Below, piece after piece: positions 12,211-18,288 of a DNA stretch of 45,335 bases. This DNA is from an uncultured Gammaproteobacteria bacterium (GTDB lineage: Bacteria; Patescibacteriota; Microgenomatia; UBA1406; GWC2-37-13). The stretch covers positions 1 through 45,335 of the forward strand of contig CAZKKK010000001.1 in NCBI GenBank assembly GCA_964553365.1. The letters run 5' to 3'. The notes under the pieces are model-generated. The model did no database searches, was not told where the DNA came from, and worked only from the letters and a program-made list of their open reading frames with translations. The number at the start of each line of letters is the position of its first letter. Positions within the stretch are counted from its first letter, which is position 1. A program made the position numbers and the translations under genes.

Positions 12211-13272
12211 TTAAATATGGATGACTATGCTTTCCCTATTTTCCTTTTGTATTTCTTTCACAAGTTCTTCCTCAGTGGTCGTCATCACTGTCTGATATGT
12301 TTCAATTAATCGGACGATTCTTTCCTTGTTTTCGTGGTCAAATTCGGAAAAAACATCATCAAGGAGGAGTATGGGATGGATGTCGATTTCTTCTTCCATG
12401 AAGTGGATTTCATTCATCTTGAGCCAAAAAACTCCAAGCCGTTGTTCACTTCGACTCCCATATTTTTGGATATTTTTTTTTGCAGAACCCTTACTTGTCA
12501 GAGAAACGATCCAATCATCTTTCTGGGGACCGATAAGTGTCCTTCTTATACGTAACTCAAGCTCCTTTTTTTCTGCGAGACGCGCGAATGTGAATTCATT
12601 TCTCACGTATTCGATATTAAAACTCCTTCCATCAAGTCTTTCATGAGTGTTGAGAAATTCCGTATAGATATTTCTTTTTTCGGTAATATATTGCGCTTCC
12701 TTTTGGAGGTATATATCCCAAAATGATAACTCCTCTTTTAAACTTTCCAAGGATCGCGAATGCTCAAGGAGCTTGTTTCTTTTGCGCAAAGCCTGCTCAT
12801 AATTTATGAGGTGTTTTTTGTAAACTATATCGAATATGCTTATGAGCTTATTGAAGTAGTCTCGCCGTATATCCGGTGAACCGGTGATGATATCTATTTG
12901 TTCCGGAGCGAACAAAACGCACTTTGTTTGCTCATTCGTATAATGGGCGTGGCCTTTGCGCGCCTTTTGCACAAAGAAATTTTTTGTGATGGAGCCATTT
13001 ATATCTTTTTGGAGGAGGACACGAAAATGATTGACCTCCATGCCTTTATCAAATAAGCCATCAAGTTGCGTCTCAGCGCTTCCCATGAGAAGCAATTCTT
13101 CCTCCTTCGACTCTCGGAATCCCACTCCGTTTATGATGCAGTGAATGCTTTCAAGGATATTGGTCTTACCTTTAGCGTTCTCTCCCAGAATAATAGTGAG
13201 ATGTGGAGATATGTCAAAAACACGCGAGGAAATATTACGAAAATTATGAAGCTGAATCCGTTTCAAAATCAT
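12211..13272 (-). CDS. recF: DNA replication and repair protein RecF
   Basis: ILKRIQLHNFRN, Walker A GENAKGKTNILE, an SMC-like signature region (GSRSEQRL) and Walker B ILLLDDVFSEFD. Confidence 0.9.
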   Translation of the reverse strand: MILKRIQLHNFRNISSRVFDISPHLTIILGENAKGKTNILESIHCIINGVGFRESKEEELLLMGSAETQLDGLFDKGMEVNHFRVLLQKDINGSITKNFFVQKARKGHAHYTNEQTKCVLFAPEQIDIITGSPDIRRDYFNKLISIFDIVYKKHLINYEQALRKRNKLLEHSRSLESLKEELSFWDIYLQKEAQYITEKRNIYTEFLNTHERLDGRSFNIEYVRNEFTFARLAEKKELELRIRRTLIGPQKDDWIVSLTSKGSAKKNIQKYGSRSEQRLGVFWLKMNEIHFMEEEIDIHPILLLDDVFSEFDHENKERIVRLIETYQTVMTTTEEELVKEIQKENRESIVIHI

Positions 13273-13286
13273 CTAGTCATTATACC

Positions 13287-13598
13287 CTATATGATTCCTT
13301 GTCCTACTCCAAAAATATAGGCAAGCACTCTCGTAATAAAGAACGAAAGCACTAATAATACGAATCCAATGACTCCTGCGGTTATCTTTGCGTTCGCTCC
13401 CTTTAATTTTTCCGGTGAACCTTGAGAAGTCACATAATCGAAACCACCCCACATAAGGACAAAGAAAAGGATAATGCCTGCGATACTTATGACAAAGGGA
13501 ACCACATTATTGATGATATCTCCTATATTGGTAAAACCGACAAGAGGGTTACATATTCTTTGGCCACTCACAGTTATATATCCATTTGGACACGGCAT
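13287..13598 (-). CDS. Small two-TM pilin-like protein (TrbC/VirB2 or T4SS-pilin-like)
   Basis: It is a TM-loop-TM hairpin: VVPFVISIAGIILFFVLMWGGFDYVTSQGSPEKLKGANAKITAGVIGFVLLVLSFFI. The loop motif matches the C-terminus of the 23690..24436 protein. Confidence 0.6.
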   Translation of the reverse strand: MPCPNGYITVSGQRICNPLVGFTNIGDIINNVVPFVISIAGIILFFVLMWGGFDYVTSQGSPEKLKGANAKITAGVIGFVLLVLSFFITRVLAYIFGVGQGII

Positions 13599-13604
13599 AT
13601 TTAT

Positions 13605-14270
13605 TTATTTCAATCTTGATAATACTACTACTAGTATAGCGTGTATTCCTAAAGAAAACAAAAGAGGGGTTTGGATTGTCTGGATGAAGTAGGAGATGGG
13701 AGGTACTACCTGATTTATGAAGGCGGGAGAAAGCCGAATCGGAAATAGATAATACAAAAGGACAAATATAAGCCCAAGCGGGATAAGATATCCCGCATCA
13801 ACTAAATCCTGTTTTGATGAAAACATATTTGCCGTAATGGTGAGAATCAAATATCCAAACAATATGGTAATCCACCACGCATTTCCAGGGAATAGCTTCG
13901 TCTGAATTATCATCCATACAGAAACAAGAGCTCCAAGAAATGGAGCTATCCCAACCAATAGTGAACGAACAAAGTCATGGGGATTTTTTTCATACAAAAC
14001 ATGCCCTAACTTTACCTTTCTTCCCTCAATGACGGGGAAAATTCGAATTTCTTGTGGATGGAGATTGAGTATGAGTGCCGCTAAATAATGGGATACTTCA
14101 TGGATAATAGTTCCCGGCAAGTAAATGAGGGAAATGAGATACACGATCAGCCGGTCATTTTTTAGTATTTTCTTCAACACGGGATATGATTTTTGAAGTG
14201 AAAATCTTGAGAGTATAAATATGCCTACTATTTCAGCGATAAATACTACTATCTGCGTTAAGATATTCAT
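13605..14270 (-). CDS. Polytopic membrane protein with an HExxH motif (putative intramembrane zinc metallopeptidase)
   Basis: It has 5-6 hydrophobic helices. HEVSH (IIHEVSHYLAA) lies at a helix end. A 4-nt overlap links it to the upstream gene, and 6 nt separate it from the pilin-like gene. Confidence 0.6.
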   Translation of the reverse strand: MNILTQIVVFIAEIVGIFILSRFSLQKSYPVLKKILKNDRLIVYLISLIYLPGTIIHEVSHYLAALILNLHPQEIRIFPVIEGRKVKLGHVLYEKNPHDFVRSLLVGIAPFLGALVSVWMIIQTKLFPGNAWWITILFGYLILTITANMFSSKQDLVDAGYLIPLGLIFVLLYYLFPIRLSPAFINQVVPPISYFIQTIQTPLLFSLGIHAILVVVLSRLK

Positions 14271-14484: not shown

Positions 14485-17400
14485 TCACTTCTGTGGTTGC
14501 GTCCCGTCTGGAGTTGGTACTGGTTGCTCTTTTGGGATTTGCGCTTCTGGCTCTGGTTTTTTTTCATCCTTTTGAGGTGGTGTTACTGGTGCATCAATGT
14601 CAAACTGTTCTTGAACTTTACTTGAGCCACATGACGAACATATGATTGTTGCATTAGGCACCACTTCAGTGGTAAATCTCGCTGCACAGATATTACACAT
14701 ATATCTCTTCCCTTGCTTTTTCTCCTTCTTTTCAAGAAGGGTCGCTTTCTGTATATTGAAAACGAACTGTTGCCCATCAAAGTCGACCACTACTTCATCT
14801 CCTGGATTGGCTTTCTTCTCTATGATAAGGCCTGATATTGGATTTTCAACAATCCTCTGGATTGCGCGGCGAAGAGGTCTTGCACCAAACACTGGATCGA
14901 ATCCATTTCGTGCGATTTCCTTGATCGCTGCCTCGGTATATGCAAAGCCCATATCCTGGTCTTCCATGGATTTTTGGACTCCCTTGAGTTGTATTTTGGC
15001 GATTCGAGTCATATGTTCAAACCGAAGTGGTTCAAACATTATCACTTCATCAAAACGGTTTACCAGTTCAGGACGGAAAAACTTCAGCATTTCATTCATC
15101 ACTTTTTCCTTCAAGGAGGCAAACTTTTTCTTGAAGACCTCTTCATCGATCTTGTGTTTTTCTTCCACATGTTGATCGAGAGGAAGGTCTGAACCGAAAT
15201 ATTCATTTATCGATTTTGTCTTCCAAACAGTCTCACCTTGCGCTTTTGTCCATACCGACTGCCCAACCACTATCACTTCTACTCCGGAAGGAGAGAATGT
15301 ATGGATGTCCCAATATGCGACAGGCAATTGTCCTTTGTCAGCTGTCTGATCGACAAGATAATCCCGTAGAAACCCTGTCTGCCAATCACCCGTACTCAAC
15401 TTTCTTCTCCAAAACCGATCCTTATAGGTGACTATCTCTTGCTCATCGGGAGTGAAAGCATGTGTTTTCAGTGCGGCTGTAGGAAGCTGCTCATCAGGAG
15501 CATCGGGAAGAGCGTTTATTACGACTCCTTCCTTAAAATATGAAATAAGGTTTGAATGTTCCCATGTCTTTGCGGTAGTCGATGTCTTGAAAAAGACTTC
15601 TCCCGCTTTCGTGATCATTTCAATTCCAGTCGAGGACATCGCATGCGTATCGAATCCATGAAGGGGTAATTCGAGCTTTTCAGTTGATGGAGTCTGGGGA
15701 GCTACTTCTCCCTCTTTCGGTGCAACAACTGCAGCTTTCACTTCTTGACCCGCAAAATAATCTAGCAACATCTTTTCCGACCACTTCCCTTGAGATTCTT
15801 TTTCTAGGATTTTACTCCCTATGGTGAGAATCTCTCGTCCTCTTGGTGAGAATGTGTATGAAGTTATCGTTGATGGCTCTTCAATCTCAGTTTTTCCACC
15901 CTTCATCAACTCCTCCTGGATGATCTTTGATCCCAAGTTTGAAGTACAGATTACAACGGCATTCTTGAATGAAACGACATGTCCCTTGTTGTCGGTAAGT
16001 CGTCCATCATCCAATATCTGAAGGAGAATGTTAAAAATATCCGGATGAGCTTTTTCAACTTCATCGAAAAGTACGACACAGTATGGTTTTCTTCTTACCG
16101 CTTCCGTCAATTTTCCACCCTCTTCGTAGCCAACATATCCAGGAGGTGCCCCAAGAAGTTTGGCAACCTCATGTTTTTCCATATACTCCGTCATGTCGAA
16201 GCGAATCATCGCATCCTCGCTCCCAAATAGAATATCCGCGAGTGTCTTTGCTAATTCTGTTTTTCCAGTACCCGTAGGTCCCATGAATATAAACGATCCA
16301 ATAGGGCGATTTGCGGACTTCAAACCAGCTCTCCCTCTTCGAACCGCTTGGGCCACTGAGCTCACCGCTTCTTCTTGGCCGATAAGTCGTTGATGCATGA
16401 TATCTTCCAACTTCGCAAGCTTTTCAGTTTCACTTCCTGCAATCTTATTCACAGGAATGCCGGTCCAACGAGAAACTATGTCCTTAATCATGGAAACGGT
16501 CACTGCCGTTGTCGTTTGTGCTTTTTTGGTATTGAACTCATCTTTTTTTGTATTCAAGTCCCCTTCGATATCCGACAATTTTGATTTGATGATGCGCGCG
16601 CGTACGTTGTCTCCGGATTTCGTTGACTCCACCATTTCTTGATTTAGTTGTTTTATGCGCTCATCCAAAGACTTTATTTCCTCAGGAAGAGAAATGAGAG
16701 GAAGTCGTACCGCTGAAGCGGATTCATCGATCAAGTCTATTGCCTTATCGGGTAAGAATCGTTCTCCTACATAGCGTTTTGAAAGGCGGACTGCCGCCTC
16801 AACCGCATCATCTGGAATCTGGACACGATGGAAAGCTTCATATTTTCCCTTCAAAGCTTTAAGCATCTTTATTGCCTGCTCTTCTGTTGGCTCTGGAACG
16901 ACGACAGGTTGGAAACGTCTCTCAAGGGCTGGATCCTTCTCGATATACTTTCTGTATTCCGTTAAGGTAGTTGCTCCAATGATCTGCATCTCTCCTCTGG
17001 ACAGGCCTGGTTTCAATAAATTTCCAGCGTCTCCTGAACCCTCTCCGCCTGCGACGATATTGTGGATTTCATCAATGAAGAGAATTATCTGCCCTTTACT
17101 TGCCTTTACCTCATCGATGACGCCCTTCATGCGTTCTTCAAACTCACCCTTGTGTGAGGCACCCGCCATAACACTCATCAAATCCAAACCAAGAATTCTT
17201 TTGTTTAACAAAGGTTCCGGTACTTGTTTATTGACGATTTGTTGAGCTAAACCTTCAATTATTGCGGTTTTTCCAACTCCAGCCTCTCCAACCATTACTG
17301 GATTATTCTTACTTCTTCTCGAAAGGATATGAATAACTCGCTCAATTACTTGAGATCTCTCAATCACTGGATCGAGCAATCCCTGTGCGGCGCGTGCTGT

Positions 17401-18288
17401 GATATCGATGGTAAATTGGTCAAGTGAACTTTTTTTCTTTTCCGCTTCTTTTTGATCGGTCAATAGACCCTCTTTGTTTCCTGTGATCTTTTTATTTAGC
17501 TCTTCCTTTTTCAGTCCTAATTTTGCAAGTGCACGTGCGCCAATTCCTTCACCCTCTTCATATAACGCAAAAAGGATATGCTCTGGTGAAATAAACTCAA
17601 ATCCAAGTTTTCGGGCGATAATAAGAGAATTATCAATAATTCGTTTCAGTCGAGGAGACATTTGGGGTGGAACAAGTTTTGCAGGCTCACGTTTATACGT
17701 TTGGGCAAGTTCCGCCTCAATTTGTTGCGGTTGGACCTTCATTTCCATCAAAAGCTTATATATTTCTCCATCTGCGAGTAATCCGTGGAGCATGTGTTCA
17801 CTATCGATAAACGCACTTCCCATTTCCTTTGCTTTTGCCTGCGCTGTGACGAATACCCTATTGGATCGTTGCGTAAGATGTGTCATCAAATCCAAATCGG
17901 TTCTCTTTTGCGAATTCATCGTTGAGTTTAAAGATGCCCCTAAAGGTTTTGCAGGTGGGACTTGACCTGGTGCTTGCGGTTTGTCGCTCGCTGGACCAAC
18001 AGGTTTTACCGGTGGTTGACTATTCAACAACTCTTGGACCCTTACTTGTTCCGGTGTGAGTACTTTTTGGGGTGGAGCTCCAATACCGTTATAAGCCTGT
18101 CCTCCAGGTGGGTTTCCGATACCATTATATGAAGTTGTTTGAGGCCTTGTGACGGTCTGTTGAGGAATAACGACTCCTGGCTGTGTCATTGCAGGAGGCA
18201 TCTGTGATGGTGCTCCAGGAACTGGTGAAATCGAAGGAGTGCTTGCATTCGAGTTGTTATTTTTTATAAAATCAAAAAAGCCAGACAT
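14485..18288 (-). CDS. ClpC/ClpB-family double-ring AAA+ unfoldase with atypical extensions
   Basis: It has two Clp_N repeats (FIDSEHMLHGLL and FISPEHILFALY). D1 has Walker A GEAGVGKTAI and Walker B ILFIDEIH. The middle region is short, about 70 aa. D2 has Walker A GPTGTGKTELAKTLA, Walker B VVLFDEVEKAH and sensor-1 CTSNLGS. FRPELVNRFDEVIMF and GARPLRRAIQ follow. It also carries a P/Q/G-rich N-terminus, a ~240-aa insertion in D2 and a CxxC...CxxC tail. Confidence 0.93.
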   Translation of the reverse strand: MSGFFDFIKNNNSNASTPSISPVPGAPSQMPPAMTQPGVVIPQQTVTRPQTTSYNGIGNPPGGQAYNGIGAPPQKVLTPEQVRVQELLNSQPPVKPVGPASDKPQAPGQVPPAKPLGASLNSTMNSQKRTDLDLMTHLTQRSNRVFVTAQAKAKEMGSAFIDSEHMLHGLLADGEIYKLLMEMKVQPQQIEAELAQTYKREPAKLVPPQMSPRLKRIIDNSLIIARKLGFEFISPEHILFALYEEGEGIGARALAKLGLKKEELNKKITGNKEGLLTDQKEAEKKKSSLDQFTIDITARAAQGLLDPVIERSQVIERVIHILSRRSKNNPVMVGEAGVGKTAIIEGLAQQIVNKQVPEPLLNKRILGLDLMSVMAGASHKGEFEERMKGVIDEVKASKGQIILFIDEIHNIVAGGEGSGDAGNLLKPGLSRGEMQIIGATTLTEYRKYIEKDPALERRFQPVVVPEPTEEQAIKMLKALKGKYEAFHRVQIPDDAVEAAVRLSKRYVGERFLPDKAIDLIDESASAVRLPLISLPEEIKSLDERIKQLNQEMVESTKSGDNVRARIIKSKLSDIEGDLNTKKDEFNTKKAQTTTAVTVSMIKDIVSRWTGIPVNKIAGSETEKLAKLEDIMHQRLIGQEEAVSSVAQAVRRGRAGLKSANRPIGSFIFMGPTGTGKTELAKTLADILFGSEDAMIRFDMTEYMEKHEVAKLLGAPPGYVGYEEGGKLTEAVRRKPYCVVLFDEVEKAHPDIFNILLQILDDGRLTDNKGHVVSFKNAVVICTSNLGSKIIQEELMKGGKTEIEEPSTITSYTFSPRGREILTIGSKILEKESQGKWSEKMLLDYFAGQEVKAAVVAPKEGEVAPQTPSTEKLELPLHGFDTHAMSSTGIEMITKAGEVFFKTSTTAKTWEHSNLISYFKEGVVINALPDAPDEQLPTAALKTHAFTPDEQEIVTYKDRFWRRKLSTGDWQTGFLRDYLVDQTADKGQLPVAYWDIHTFSPSGVEVIVVGQSVWTKAQGETVWKTKSINEYFGSDLPLDQHVEEKHKIDEEVFKKKFASLKEKVMNEMLKFFRPELVNRFDEVIMFEPLRFEHMTRIAKIQLKGVQKSMEDQDMGFAYTEAAIKEIARNGFDPVFGARPLRRAIQRIVENPISGLIIEKKANPGDEVVVDFDGQQFVFNIQKATLLEKKEKKQGKRYMCNICAARFTTEVVPNATIICSSCGSSKVQEQFDIDAPVTPPQKDEKKPEPEAQIPKEQPVPTPDGTQPQK

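What the first reader, a model, noticed from the sequence alone, without database searches (positions are those of the whole stretch)
15169..15891. Four tandem repeats of about 45 aa inserted between sensor-1 and the Arg-finger region of ClpC-like AAA+ domain 2
In canonical ClpB/ClpC roughly 30 residues separate TSNLGS from FRPEF(L/I)NR. Here about 285 residues separate CTSNLGS (aa 781) from FRPELVNRF (aa 1071). The extra sequence resolves into four repeats. R1 is SYTFSPRGREILTIGSKILEKESQGKWSEKMLLDYF. R2 is THAMSSTGIEMITKAGEVFFKTSTTAKTWEHSNLISYF. R3 is THAFTPDEQEIVTYKDRFWRRKLSTGDWQTGFLRDYL. R4 is IHTFSPSGVEVIVVGQSVWTKAQGETVWKTKSINEYF. The consensus is [TI]-H-x-F-[ST]-P-x-G-x-E-[IV]-[IV]-x-x-G-x-x-[VF]-[WF]-x-K-x(6)-W-x(4,6)-[LI]-x-x-Y-[FL], with Pro/Glu-rich linkers between repeats. 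A repeat domain at this position would project from the D2 ring and could be a substrate, adaptor or partner docking platform. I do not know of this insertion in characterised Clp/Hsp100 proteins.
Basis: partly seen in the sequence, partly recalled or inferred. Interest (0 to 1): 0.7.

Follow-up and report, generated by a model that had tools for sequence, protein, structure and literature searches.

The report
Hemopexin-like propeller inside ClpC's ClpP-docking loop
A ClpC-type protein-unfolding ATPase from uncultured Roizmanbacteria carries a predicted four-bladed, hemopexin-like beta-propeller exactly where relatives have the short loop that docks the ClpP protease, an architecture I found described nowhere and whose function is untested.

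Summary
The 1267-aa ClpC-like ORF (window 14485-18288, minus strand) has about 262 residues (aa 794-1055) where B. subtilis ClpC has 13 (aa 669-681). Those 13 residues include the VGF tripeptide that docks ClpP.

The four repeats are statistically significant. AlphaFold2 folds them confidently (pLDDT 82, pTM 0.80) into four 4-stranded blades. Foldseek's best PDB matches are hemopexin-fold four-bladed propellers. Profile searches link the blades to secreted bacterial proteins whose repeats match Pfam Hemopexin.

The insert occurs in at least 75 species-level genomes, almost all Roizmanbacteria/Microgenomates MAGs, and is as conserved as other ClpC domains. An inter-blade loop, VINALPDAPDEQLPT, is nearly invariant. 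Seven genomes carry a second propeller nested inside the first.

Orthologues without the insert sit in the same gene neighbourhood, so the HExxH and pilin-like neighbours are not specific to the insert. No conserved ClpP-docking tripeptide exists in the insert-bearing proteins or in 93 insert-less relatives.

Most likely this is a ClpP-independent unfoldase with a crown of six propellers on its exit face, each on a long helix leading to the Arg finger, acting as a partner- or ligand-binding module. That function is inferred. It is a new variant of a known kind.

The parts
14485..18288 (-). ClpC-like class-I Hsp100 gene, 1267 aa: N-extension, Clp_N x2, AAA1, short M-domain, AAA2 with insert, D2-small, C-terminal zinc ribbon and tail.
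   Evidence: Walker A at aa 334 and 670, Walker B at aa 402 and 738, sensor-2 GARPLRR at aa 1135.
15937..15945 (-). AAA2 sensor-1 (TSN, aa 782-784), the last canonical element before the insert.
15124..15909 (-). Inserted domain, aa 794-1055. It replaces the 13-residue P-loop segment (aa 669-681, containing VGF) of B. subtilis ClpC.
   Evidence: AF2 pLDDT 81.8, pTM 0.80. Foldseek hits to the hemopexin fold.
15745..15882 (-). Blade 1 (aa 803-848). The loop between its strands 3 and 4 varies in length among homologues and hosts the nested second propeller in L046 and L062.
15529..15672 (-). Blade 2 (aa 873-920). It includes 'HGFDTHAMS'. The GF aligns with the first blade strand of the other repeats (the ID of the IDAAYF motif) and is not a free ClpP tripeptide.
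15481..15528 (-). Near-invariant inter-blade 2-3 segment GVVINALPDAPDEQLP (aa 921-936). Low pLDDT in the insert-only model suggests an exposed, flexible loop. Candidate interaction motif.
   Evidence: most positions identical in about 90-100% of 59 sequences. (0.88 identity, equal to the AAA+ cores). (pLDDT 54-71).
15352..15486 (-). Blade 3 (aa 935-979).
15190..15327 (-). Blade 4 (aa 988-1033).
15079..15180 (-). Predicted continuous 34-residue helix (aa 1037-1070) running from the propeller exit into the helix that precedes the Arg finger.
   Evidence: helix at model residues 438-471, pLDDT about 85-87.
15055..15078 (-). AAA2 Arg-finger motif FRPELVNR (aa 1071-1078).
17884..18288 (-). N-terminal Pro/Gln-rich extension (aa 1-135) with conserved MSGFFDF start and two Y(N/S)GIG motifs.
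14629..14697 (-). C-terminal CxxC...CxxC zinc-ribbon-like motif (aa 1198-1220), shared with the insert-less Microgenomates orthologues.
   Evidence: (four Cys columns conserved in at least 90% of rows).

Best explanation
The four repeats are the four blades of a divergent hemopexin-like beta-propeller, about 240 aa, with no cysteine. It has been inserted in frame into the P-loop of AAA2. In ClpC, ClpE, ClpA and ClpX that loop carries the (V/I/L)-G-(F/L) tripeptide that plugs into ClpP.

The host protein keeps every ATPase motif, so it should still form a two-tiered hexameric unfoldase. It lacks a conserved docking tripeptide, as do its closest insert-less orthologues. I therefore infer that it works without canonical ClpP docking, like ClpB, ClpG or ClpL.

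Six propellers would decorate the substrate-exit (ClpP-facing) side. Each is joined N-terminally by a roughly 10-residue flexible tether. Each is joined C-terminally by a long helix continuous with the helix that carries the AAA2 Arg finger.

I propose the propeller is a binding module for a partner protein or small ligand. Candidate sites are the invariant VINALPDAPDEQLPT loop and the conserved His/Tyr in the first strand of each blade. Occupancy could be coupled to the ATPase cycle through the Arg-finger helix.

Shown: the insertion point, the repeat significance, the predicted fold, homology to hemopexin-like repeats, the distribution, purifying selection, and absence of a tripeptide. Inferred: ClpP independence, the exit-face crown geometry, the binding role, and allosteric coupling.
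For: Insertion point and P-loop identity. P-loop function comes from bioRxiv 10.1101/2022.09.15.508104 and PMC13125188.

Repeat significance.

Fold: AF2 pLDDT 81.8 and pTM 0.80, with four units of 4 strands plus a short helix. The same blades appear in the D2+insert model, pLDDT 83.1 and pTM 0.73. Foldseek's top hits are hemopexin-fold propellers, E 6e-9 to 1e-7, TM 0.65-0.73 on the target.

Sequence link: the insert profile hits secreted repeat proteins at E 3e-12 to 6e-4 against 1.84 billion representatives. Blade-versus-blade hhalign gives probability 98.4%, E 1e-14. Pfam Hemopexin scores 25.2 bits, above its 21.3 cut-off, on one of those proteins.

Selection: blade identity is 0.58-0.71, against 0.61-0.73 for the Clp_N, M and D2-small domains. 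The blade 2-3 loop is 0.88.

No tripeptide: 59 of 68 inserts have no [LIVM]G[FL], and the other 9 have one at non-homologous places. None of 93 insert-less relatives has one.

ATPase motifs are intact.
Against: No experiment exists and the organism is uncultured. Whether these genomes encode ClpP could not be checked; none lies within 817 kb of clpC-flanking sequence, which is uninformative.

The hexamer geometry is extrapolated from ClpC/ClpE-ClpP structures, not modelled.

Pfam Hemopexin does not hit the insert itself, even at E<=10. A non-canonical ClpP contact cannot be excluded.
Confidence: 0.5

Rival explanations
1. The propeller is a replacement docking device. It binds ClpP, or another compartmental peptidase, in a non-canonical way, so the enzyme is still the ATPase half of a protease.
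For: It sits exactly at the ClpP-docking loop. The adjacent helix region contacts ClpP hairpins in ClpC/ClpE complexes (PMC13125188). A few insert-less relatives keep 'NVGVGRD' or 'DIGVLRA' sequences that could be degenerate P-loops.
Against: Canonical docking uses flexible loops that accommodate the 6:7 symmetry mismatch, whereas this is a folded domain of about 240 residues. There is no conserved hydrophobic-Gly-Phe/Leu. The closest insert-less orthologues have Lys/Glu-rich loops without a tripeptide, so coupling was probably lost before the insertion. No peptidase gene is conserved next to clpC.
Confidence: 0.15
2. The propellers control assembly state. They mediate ring-to-ring (tail-to-tail) or higher-order contacts that store or activate the ATPase, as M-domains do for the ClpC and ClpE resting states.
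For: Six identical surface domains on one ring face are well placed for symmetric ring stacking. From my own knowledge, some hemopexin domains dimerise; an MMP-9 hemopexin dimer (1itv) is among the Foldseek hits. ClpE and ClpC form large regulated assemblies (PMC13125188).
Against: There is no direct evidence. The invariant acidic, proline-rich loop looks more like a linear interaction motif for a distinct partner. Seven genomes tolerate a second nested propeller, which would disturb a precise ring-ring interface.
Confidence: 0.15
3. The propeller recruits substrates or adaptors for unfolding, that is, it acts as an extra N-domain.
For: From my own knowledge, beta-propellers and hemopexin domains are common protein-binding modules, for example in MMP substrate recognition.
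Against: In class-I Hsp100 proteins substrates enter at the N-domain/AAA1 face. By homology the P-loop is on the opposite face. The protein keeps its two Clp_N repeats.
Confidence: 0.12
4. It is a passenger domain without function, tolerated at a permissive loop.
For: The site is an insertion hot spot. The insert-less relative P0157 has a 143-residue Lys/Glu/Asp-rich segment between sensor-1 and the Arg finger, where relatives have 36-65 residues. The linkers between blades vary freely.
Against: It is retained in at least 75 species-level genomes, with blade conservation like the other ClpC domains and a loop as conserved as the ATPase cores. The reading frame is open in all full-length copies.
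Confidence: 0.05

Closest known systems
ClpC / ClpE (class-I Hsp100 ATPases that dock ClpP through an AAA2 P-loop with a VGF tip)
   Same: Domain order Clp_N-AAA1-short M-domain-AAA2-D2-small. Contiguous alignment to B. subtilis ClpC 5-668 and 682-804 (E 1e-230). Intact Walker A/B, sensor-1, Arg-finger and sensor-2 motifs.
   Different: The P-loop segment with VGF is replaced by a propeller of about 262 aa and there is no docking tripeptide. It has an extra N-terminal low-complexity extension and a C-terminal zinc ribbon. The AAA1 pore-loop Tyr is His ('SHKG' against 'KYRG').
ClpB / Hsp104 / ClpG / ClpL (ClpP-independent Hsp100 disaggregases)
   Same: No ClpP-docking tripeptide between sensor-1 and the Arg finger. 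The insert-less Microgenomates orthologues have only a short charged linker there. ClpB is the best NCBIfam match.
   Different: The M-domain is ClpC-length, not ClpB-length. The ClpB model scores 940 bits against a cut-off of 1232. None of the solved Hsp100 proteins matched here has a folded domain at this site.
Hemopexin-fold four-bladed propellers (hemopexin, MMP PEX domains, vitronectin, legume albumins CP4/LS24; Pfam PF00045)
   Same: Four repeats of about 45 aa, each predicted as a 4-stranded blade plus a short helix. These are the best Foldseek matches, TM 0.65-0.73 on the target. There is a sequence bridge through secreted bacterial repeat proteins.
   Different: It is cytoplasmic and embedded in an AAA+ loop rather than extracellular or terminal. 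It has no blade I-IV disulfide, as it has no Cys at all. The 'DAA' first-strand motif is replaced by D/K-T/I-H. Pfam does not detect it directly.
Other domain insertions in AAA+ unfoldases (HslU I-domain, ClpB/ClpC M-domain, Vps4 beta-domain); comparison from my own knowledge
   Same: A folded accessory domain is spliced into a surface loop of the ATPase module and is displayed six times on the ring.
   Different: The insertion site differs (the P-loop, between sensor-1 and the Arg-finger helix), the ring face differs (exit side), and the fold differs (beta-propeller).

Membership tests
Class-I Hsp100/Clp ATPase, ClpC type | Two AAA+ modules with Walker A, Walker B, sensor-1, Arg finger and sensor-2. 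| tested here: met
   GEAGVGKT at 334, ILFIDE at 402, GPTGTGKT at 670, VVLFDE at 738, TSN at 782, FRPELVNR at 1071, GARPLRR at 1135. Pfam AAA, AAA_lid_9, AAA_2 and ClpB_D2-small.
Class-I Hsp100/Clp ATPase, ClpC type | Double Clp_N repeat and a short, ClpC-length coiled-coil M-domain. | tested here: met
   Clp_N matches in two stretches. Query 137-793 aligns to ClpC 5-668 as a single stretch, including the M-domain region.
Class-I Hsp100/Clp ATPase, ClpC type | AAA2 P-loop with a hydrophobic-Gly-Phe/Leu tripeptide that docks ClpP. | tested here: not met
   The segment holding VGF 671-673 is replaced by the insert. There is no conserved [LIVM]G[FL] in 68 inserts or in 93 insert-less relatives.
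Class-I Hsp100/Clp ATPase, ClpC type | Physical and functional association with ClpP. | not testable with these tools
   Whole genomes could not be scanned for clpP, and no biochemistry is available.
ClpB | Long (about 120 aa) M-domain and a score above the ClpB equivalog cut-off. | tested here: not met
   TIGR03346 scores 940.6 bits against a cut-off of 1232.1. The M-domain aligns with ClpC within one continuous stretch, while ClpB matches split into two stretches.
Hemopexin-like repeat / four-bladed propeller (PF00045) | Four tandem repeats of about 45 aa. | tested here: met
Hemopexin-like repeat / four-bladed propeller (PF00045) | Each repeat forms a four-stranded antiparallel blade, and four blades close into a propeller. 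| tested here: met
   Prediction only. AF2 gives pLDDT 81.8 and pTM 0.80, with 4 strands plus a helix per repeat. Foldseek's top hits are 3oyo, 1qhu, 1rtg, 6o5e and 1pex.
Hemopexin-like repeat / four-bladed propeller (PF00045) | Match to the Pfam Hemopexin model. | tested here: inconclusive
   No Pfam hit on the insert at E<=10. The blades are homologous (hhalign 98.4%, E 1e-14) to repeats of secreted proteins, one of which passes the PF00045 cut-off at 25.2 bits against 21.3.
Hemopexin-like repeat / four-bladed propeller (PF00045) | Disulfide between blades I and IV (vertebrate PEX domains). | tested here: not met
   No cysteine in aa 794-1055. This is expected for a cytoplasmic protein and, from my own knowledge, the disulfide is not universal in the fold.

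The most novel reading that the evidence does not exclude
Roizmanbacteria have converted the ClpP-docking face of a ClpC-type unfoldase into a six-propeller receptor. This creates a new class of Hsp100 machine that hands over, or is gated by, a non-ClpP partner or small ligand. The signal would be carried straight to the AAA2 Arg finger through the long helix. The His/Tyr-bearing first strands and the invariant NALPDAPDEQLP loop would be the sensing or docking elements.
Probability: 0.2. Interest if true: 0.8.

Novelty: new variant of a known kind. Interest (0 to 1): 0.6.

Why it matters
The P-loop is the element that decides whether an Hsp100 ATPase is a protease component or a stand-alone chaperone. 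No solved Hsp100 matched here, and no paper I could find, has a folded domain there.

A propeller at this site, tied by a helix to the Arg finger, would be a natural example of re-engineering the output face of an AAA+ unfoldase. It could reveal a new partner or a ligand-control mechanism in CPR bacteria, whose proteostasis is essentially unstudied.

It also extends the hemopexin fold to a cytoplasmic, domain-inserted context. In addition it provides natural propeller-within-propeller nestings.

In practical terms, current annotation hides the feature. Genes are split or truncated at the insert (L001-L003), so it is invisible in protein databases.

Tried and rejected
- Pfam on the insert alone at E<=10 found nothing.
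- NCBIfam gave no model above its cut-off.
- Tandem Repeats Finder on the gene found no DNA-level repeat.
- I considered 'HGF' before blade 2 as a relocated ClpP tripeptide and rejected it. It aligns with the first strand of every blade (F/L/W/I position) and with the 'ID' of the IDAAYF motif in relatives. Its first residue varies among homologues (H, Q, Y, F).
- The truncated homologues (409-445 aa 'hypothetical proteins') are not a naturally split gene. Full ORFs are open in L001 and L003. The truncations coincide with runs of N in L002 and L003. In L001 the truncation is a short annotated gene call inside the open ORF; I suspect but did not verify that this is a PGAP artefact.
- tblastn with E. 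coli ClpP against the window and 78 loci (817 kb) found nothing. This is uninformative because only clpC flanks are held.
- The first related-loci scan with the gappy alignment A2 failed. It was redone with the blade 2-3 core, A3.
- Literature searches for ClpC with CPR, hemopexin, P-loop insertion or Roizmanbacteria found nothing relevant.
- A specific link between the insert and the HExxH or pilin neighbours is rejected.
Full report
**1. The observation**

The finding lies in a 1267-aa ORF on the minus strand (14485-18288). Pfam finds Clp_N (two stretches), AAA, AAA_lid_9, AAA_2 and ClpB_D2-small. Coordinates 15169-15891 correspond to aa 800-1040, and the quoted motifs and repeats are at the stated positions.

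phmmer against all PDB sequences gives B. subtilis ClpC as best hit (E 1e-230), in two pieces: query 137-793 to ClpC 5-668, and query 1056-1178 to ClpC 682-804. So about 262 residues stand where ClpC has 13.

All six pairwise local alignments of the four repeats are in register. Their z-scores are 4.3-11.2 against 1000 shuffles. There is no DNA-level tandem repeat.

**2. What the insertion site is**

I checked the B. subtilis ClpC sequence 649-714 against PDB entries and it matched exactly. This places the VGF tripeptide at residues 671-673, inside the replaced 669-681 segment.

The literature describes this as the P-loop. It extends from the bottom of the hexamer and plugs its VGF/IGF tip into the hydrophobic pockets of ClpP. 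VGF-to-GGR mutants lose ClpP binding but still unfold (bioRxiv 10.1101/2022.09.15.508104; PMC13125188). The ClpE paper also notes that the region next to the helix carrying the AAA2 Arg finger contacts ClpP.

**3. What the insert is**

- An insert-only alignment of 11 sequences (A2) gave an AlphaFold2 model with mean pLDDT 81.8 and pTM 0.80.
- In that model each repeat forms four beta-strands followed by a short helix. Only the N-terminal tether and the blade 1-2 linker are disordered.
- Foldseek against the PDB returns hemopexin-fold four-bladed propellers as the best hits. Examples are cowpea CP4 3oyo, hemopexin 1qhu, the MMP-2/-13/-14 PEX domains and vitronectin 6o5e. E-values run from 6e-9 to about 1e-7, with TM 0.65-0.73 normalised to the target.
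- Pfam does not detect the insert, even at E<=10.
- An exhaustive profile search of 1.84 billion representatives found only 42 proteins at E<=1e-3. The strong hits are ClpC fragments or full-length ClpC.
- The weaker hits (E 3e-12 to 6e-4) include proteins with N-terminal hydrophobic segments and GH- or dockerin-type domains, so I take them to be secreted. They carry C-terminal 'IDAAYFD..GGYTVIKGDRYWYR...W..NTL..AY' repeats fused to DUF2961, GH39/42-like, dockerin or Peptidase_C39_2 domains.
- A blade profile from ClpC aligns to a blade profile from those proteins over 45 of 46 columns. hhalign probability is 98.4% and E is 1e-14.
- Pfam Hemopexin scores 25.2 bits (cut-off 21.3) on one of those proteins and 17.2 bits on another.

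The insert is therefore a divergent hemopexin-like propeller by predicted fold and by transitive sequence homology. It has no cysteine, so it lacks the blade I-IV disulfide of vertebrate PEX domains.

**4. Distribution and evolution**

A scan of one genome per GTDB species found 75 loci encoding the blade 2-3 core. Most records that carry an informative name are Roizmanbacteria, Microgenomates or Patescibacteria MAGs. Many others are titled 'uncultured Gammaproteobacteria', which I take to be placeholder names.

In 68 inserts that could be delimited, the sensor-1 to Arg-finger distance is 264-570 residues. A blade HMM finds four blades in most.

Seven genomes have eight blades. In L046 and L062 a complete second propeller is nested between strands 3 and 4 of blade 1. 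In L064 it is nested between strands 1 and 2 of blade 2. This points to two separate nesting events.

Across 39 other full-length orthologues, identity to the window protein is:
- blades: 0.58-0.71
- Clp_N: 0.73
- M-domain: 0.61
- Arg-finger helix plus D2-small: 0.72
- AAA+ cores: 0.83-0.87
- blade 2-3 segment GVVINALPDAPDEQLP: 0.88, most positions identical in about 90-100% of 59 sequences
- blade 1-2 linker: 0.20

They indicate purifying selection on the propeller and strongest constraint on one loop. That loop has low pLDDT (54-71) in the insert-only model.

**5. Orthologues without the insert**

A search with AAA2 plus the insert returned insert-bearing proteins first. It then returned many Microgenomates/Patescibacteria ClpC proteins of 825-1017 aa, about 85% identical in AAA2.

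In 93 of these the sensor-1 to Arg-finger segment is 36-65 residues, with one of 143. It is Lys/Glu-rich and never contains [LIVM]-G-[FLM]. A few have 'NVGVGRD' or 'DIGVLRA', possibly degenerate P-loops. Among the insert-bearing proteins, 59 of 68 have no [LIVM]G[FL] in the insert, and the other nine have one at unrelated positions.

Two insert-less genes have the same neighbours as the window gene. They are P0088 in the 1.1-Mb record CP066689.1, and P0077. Upstream and divergent are a C39-like gene, a small gene and a gene of about 560 aa. Downstream are the HExxH membrane protein, the T4SS-pilin-like gene and recF. tblastn shows the ClpC alignment skipping the insert.

So these are orthologues that differ by an indel, and the neighbourhood is not specific to the insert. 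Among 59 insert-bearing loci with at least 2.5 kb of downstream sequence, the pilin-like gene is found in 52, recF in 47 and the HExxH gene in 36.

**6. Attachment to the ATPase**

A second AF2 model covers aa 600-1190 with 43 sequences. It has pLDDT 83.1 and pTM 0.73. It reproduces the four blades with pLDDT around 90.

It predicts one continuous 34-residue helix (aa 1037-1070, pLDDT about 85-87) from the propeller exit to the FRPELVNR Arg-finger motif. The N-terminal connection (aa 797-809) is a lower-confidence loop. Only aa 1056-1070 of that helix align with ClpC. So the helix seems extended by about 19 residues, like a stalk. I could not obtain coordinates or PAE, so the relative orientation is not established.

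**7. Most likely mechanism**

Shown:
- an intact double-AAA+ ClpC-type ATPase
- the P-loop replaced by a conserved, predicted hemopexin-like propeller
- no docking tripeptide in this protein or its orthologues

Inferred:
- The enzyme acts without canonical ClpP docking.
- Six propellers form a crown on the exit face.
- The propeller binds a partner protein or small ligand. Candidate sites are the invariant acidic, proline-rich loop and the conserved His (blades 2-4) or Tyr (blade 1) in the first strand. That position corresponds to the second Ala of the 'DAA' motif, which lines the central tunnel of hemopexin domains (family knowledge, not measured here).
- Binding may be coupled to the AAA2 Arg finger through the helix.

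Rivals are non-canonical docking of ClpP or another peptidase, control of ring stacking or assembly, substrate recruitment, and a neutral passenger domain. They are weighed in the report sections. The passenger idea is the least compatible with the conservation data.

**8. Comparison and novelty**

The protein works like, and is largely a member of, the ClpC branch of class-I Hsp100 proteins, but it fails the P-loop criterion. It is not ClpB: it has a ClpC-length M-domain and scores below the ClpB cut-off.

The insert is hemopexin-like by predicted fold and by transitive homology, but not by a direct Pfam match. Accessory domains inserted in AAA+ modules are known in kind (HslU I-domain, M-domains). 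I found no precedent at this site, on this face or with this fold, either among solved structures or in the searchable literature. I rate it a new variant of a known kind, with interest 0.6.

The main gaps are whether clpP is present in these genomes, the hexamer geometry, and any experimental data.

Noticed in passing
L046, L057, L061, L062, L065, L066 (nested in blade 1) and L064 (nested in blade 2); inserts of 542-576 aa: Seven genomes carry eight blades. A complete second four-blade propeller is nested inside a blade of the first, at two different positions, which suggests independent propeller-in-propeller duplications.
   Followed up: partly
window 17884-18288 (-), aa 1-135: N-terminal Pro/Gln-rich extension with a conserved MSGFFDF start and two copies of a Y(N/S)GIG motif. 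The start motif and a low-complexity extension are also seen in insert-less Microgenomates orthologues; the YxGIG motifs were seen in L001, L003 and P0015. Function unknown.
   Followed up: no
window 14629-14697 (-), aa 1198-1220, plus tail to aa 1267: C-terminal CxxC...CxxC zinc-ribbon-like motif followed by a Pro/Gln/Lys-rich tail. The four Cys are conserved in at least 90% of 43 aligned Microgenomates ClpC proteins. Like the insert it follows D2-small, so it probably also sits near the exit face.
   Followed up: partly
window about 17143-17154 (-), aa 379-382: The AAA1 pore-1 loop reads 'SHKG', where B. subtilis ClpC has 'KYRG'. The conserved aromatic Tyr is His in this protein; the insert-less relatives read 'SHRG'. 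The AAA2 'GYVG' loop is intact.
   Followed up: no
P0014 (834 aa, from the representative search): A divergent relative keeps Clp_N, one AAA+ module, the four-blade insert, D2-small and the zinc ribbon. It lacks AAA1 and has a degenerate Walker B ('VFSDIEKA'). It may be an inactive or regulatory paralogue.
   Followed up: no
L001 (JBNAVI010000021.1), L002 (PFED01000031.1), L003 (ERZ22276489 NODE_6097): Public annotation hides the feature. In L001 only the C-terminal 443 aa are called, as a 'hypothetical protein', although the 1261-aa ORF is open. L002 and L003 have runs of N inside blade 1, so assemblies break at the variable region.
   Followed up: yes
window 13605-14270 (-), 13287-13598 (-), 12211-13272 (-); L079, L080: The order clpC, (small ORF in L079/L080), HExxH multi-pass membrane protein with no Pfam or NCBIfam hit, T4SS-pilin-like protein, recF is conserved in both insert-bearing and insert-less Microgenomates. 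The HExxH protein is uncharacterised.
   Followed up: partly
P0157 (867 aa, insert-less relative): At the same P-loop position this relative has a 143-residue Lys/Glu/Asp-rich low-complexity segment between sensor-1 and the Arg finger. The loop seems to be an insertion hot spot in Microgenomates ClpC.
   Followed up: no
P0031, P0033, P0036, P0040, P0041, P0044, P0046-P0048, P0050, P0051; L082, L083: Apparently secreted bacterial proteins carry three to four hemopexin-like 'IDAAYFD...GDRYWYR' repeats. These are fused to DUF2961, GH39/42-like, dockerin or Peptidase_C39_2 domains, and most go undetected by Pfam Hemopexin. They are the closest relatives of the ClpC blades outside ClpC and a possible source of the domain.
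   Followed up: partly
record titles (e.g. L010, L011, L013-L015): Many GTDB representative records holding this Roizmanbacteria-type clpC are titled 'uncultured Gammaproteobacteria bacterium' (TPA assemblies). A few others are labelled Weeksellaceae, Limisphaerales, Omnitrophica or Nitrosocosmicus. These are probably placeholder names or mis-binned contigs.
   Followed up: no
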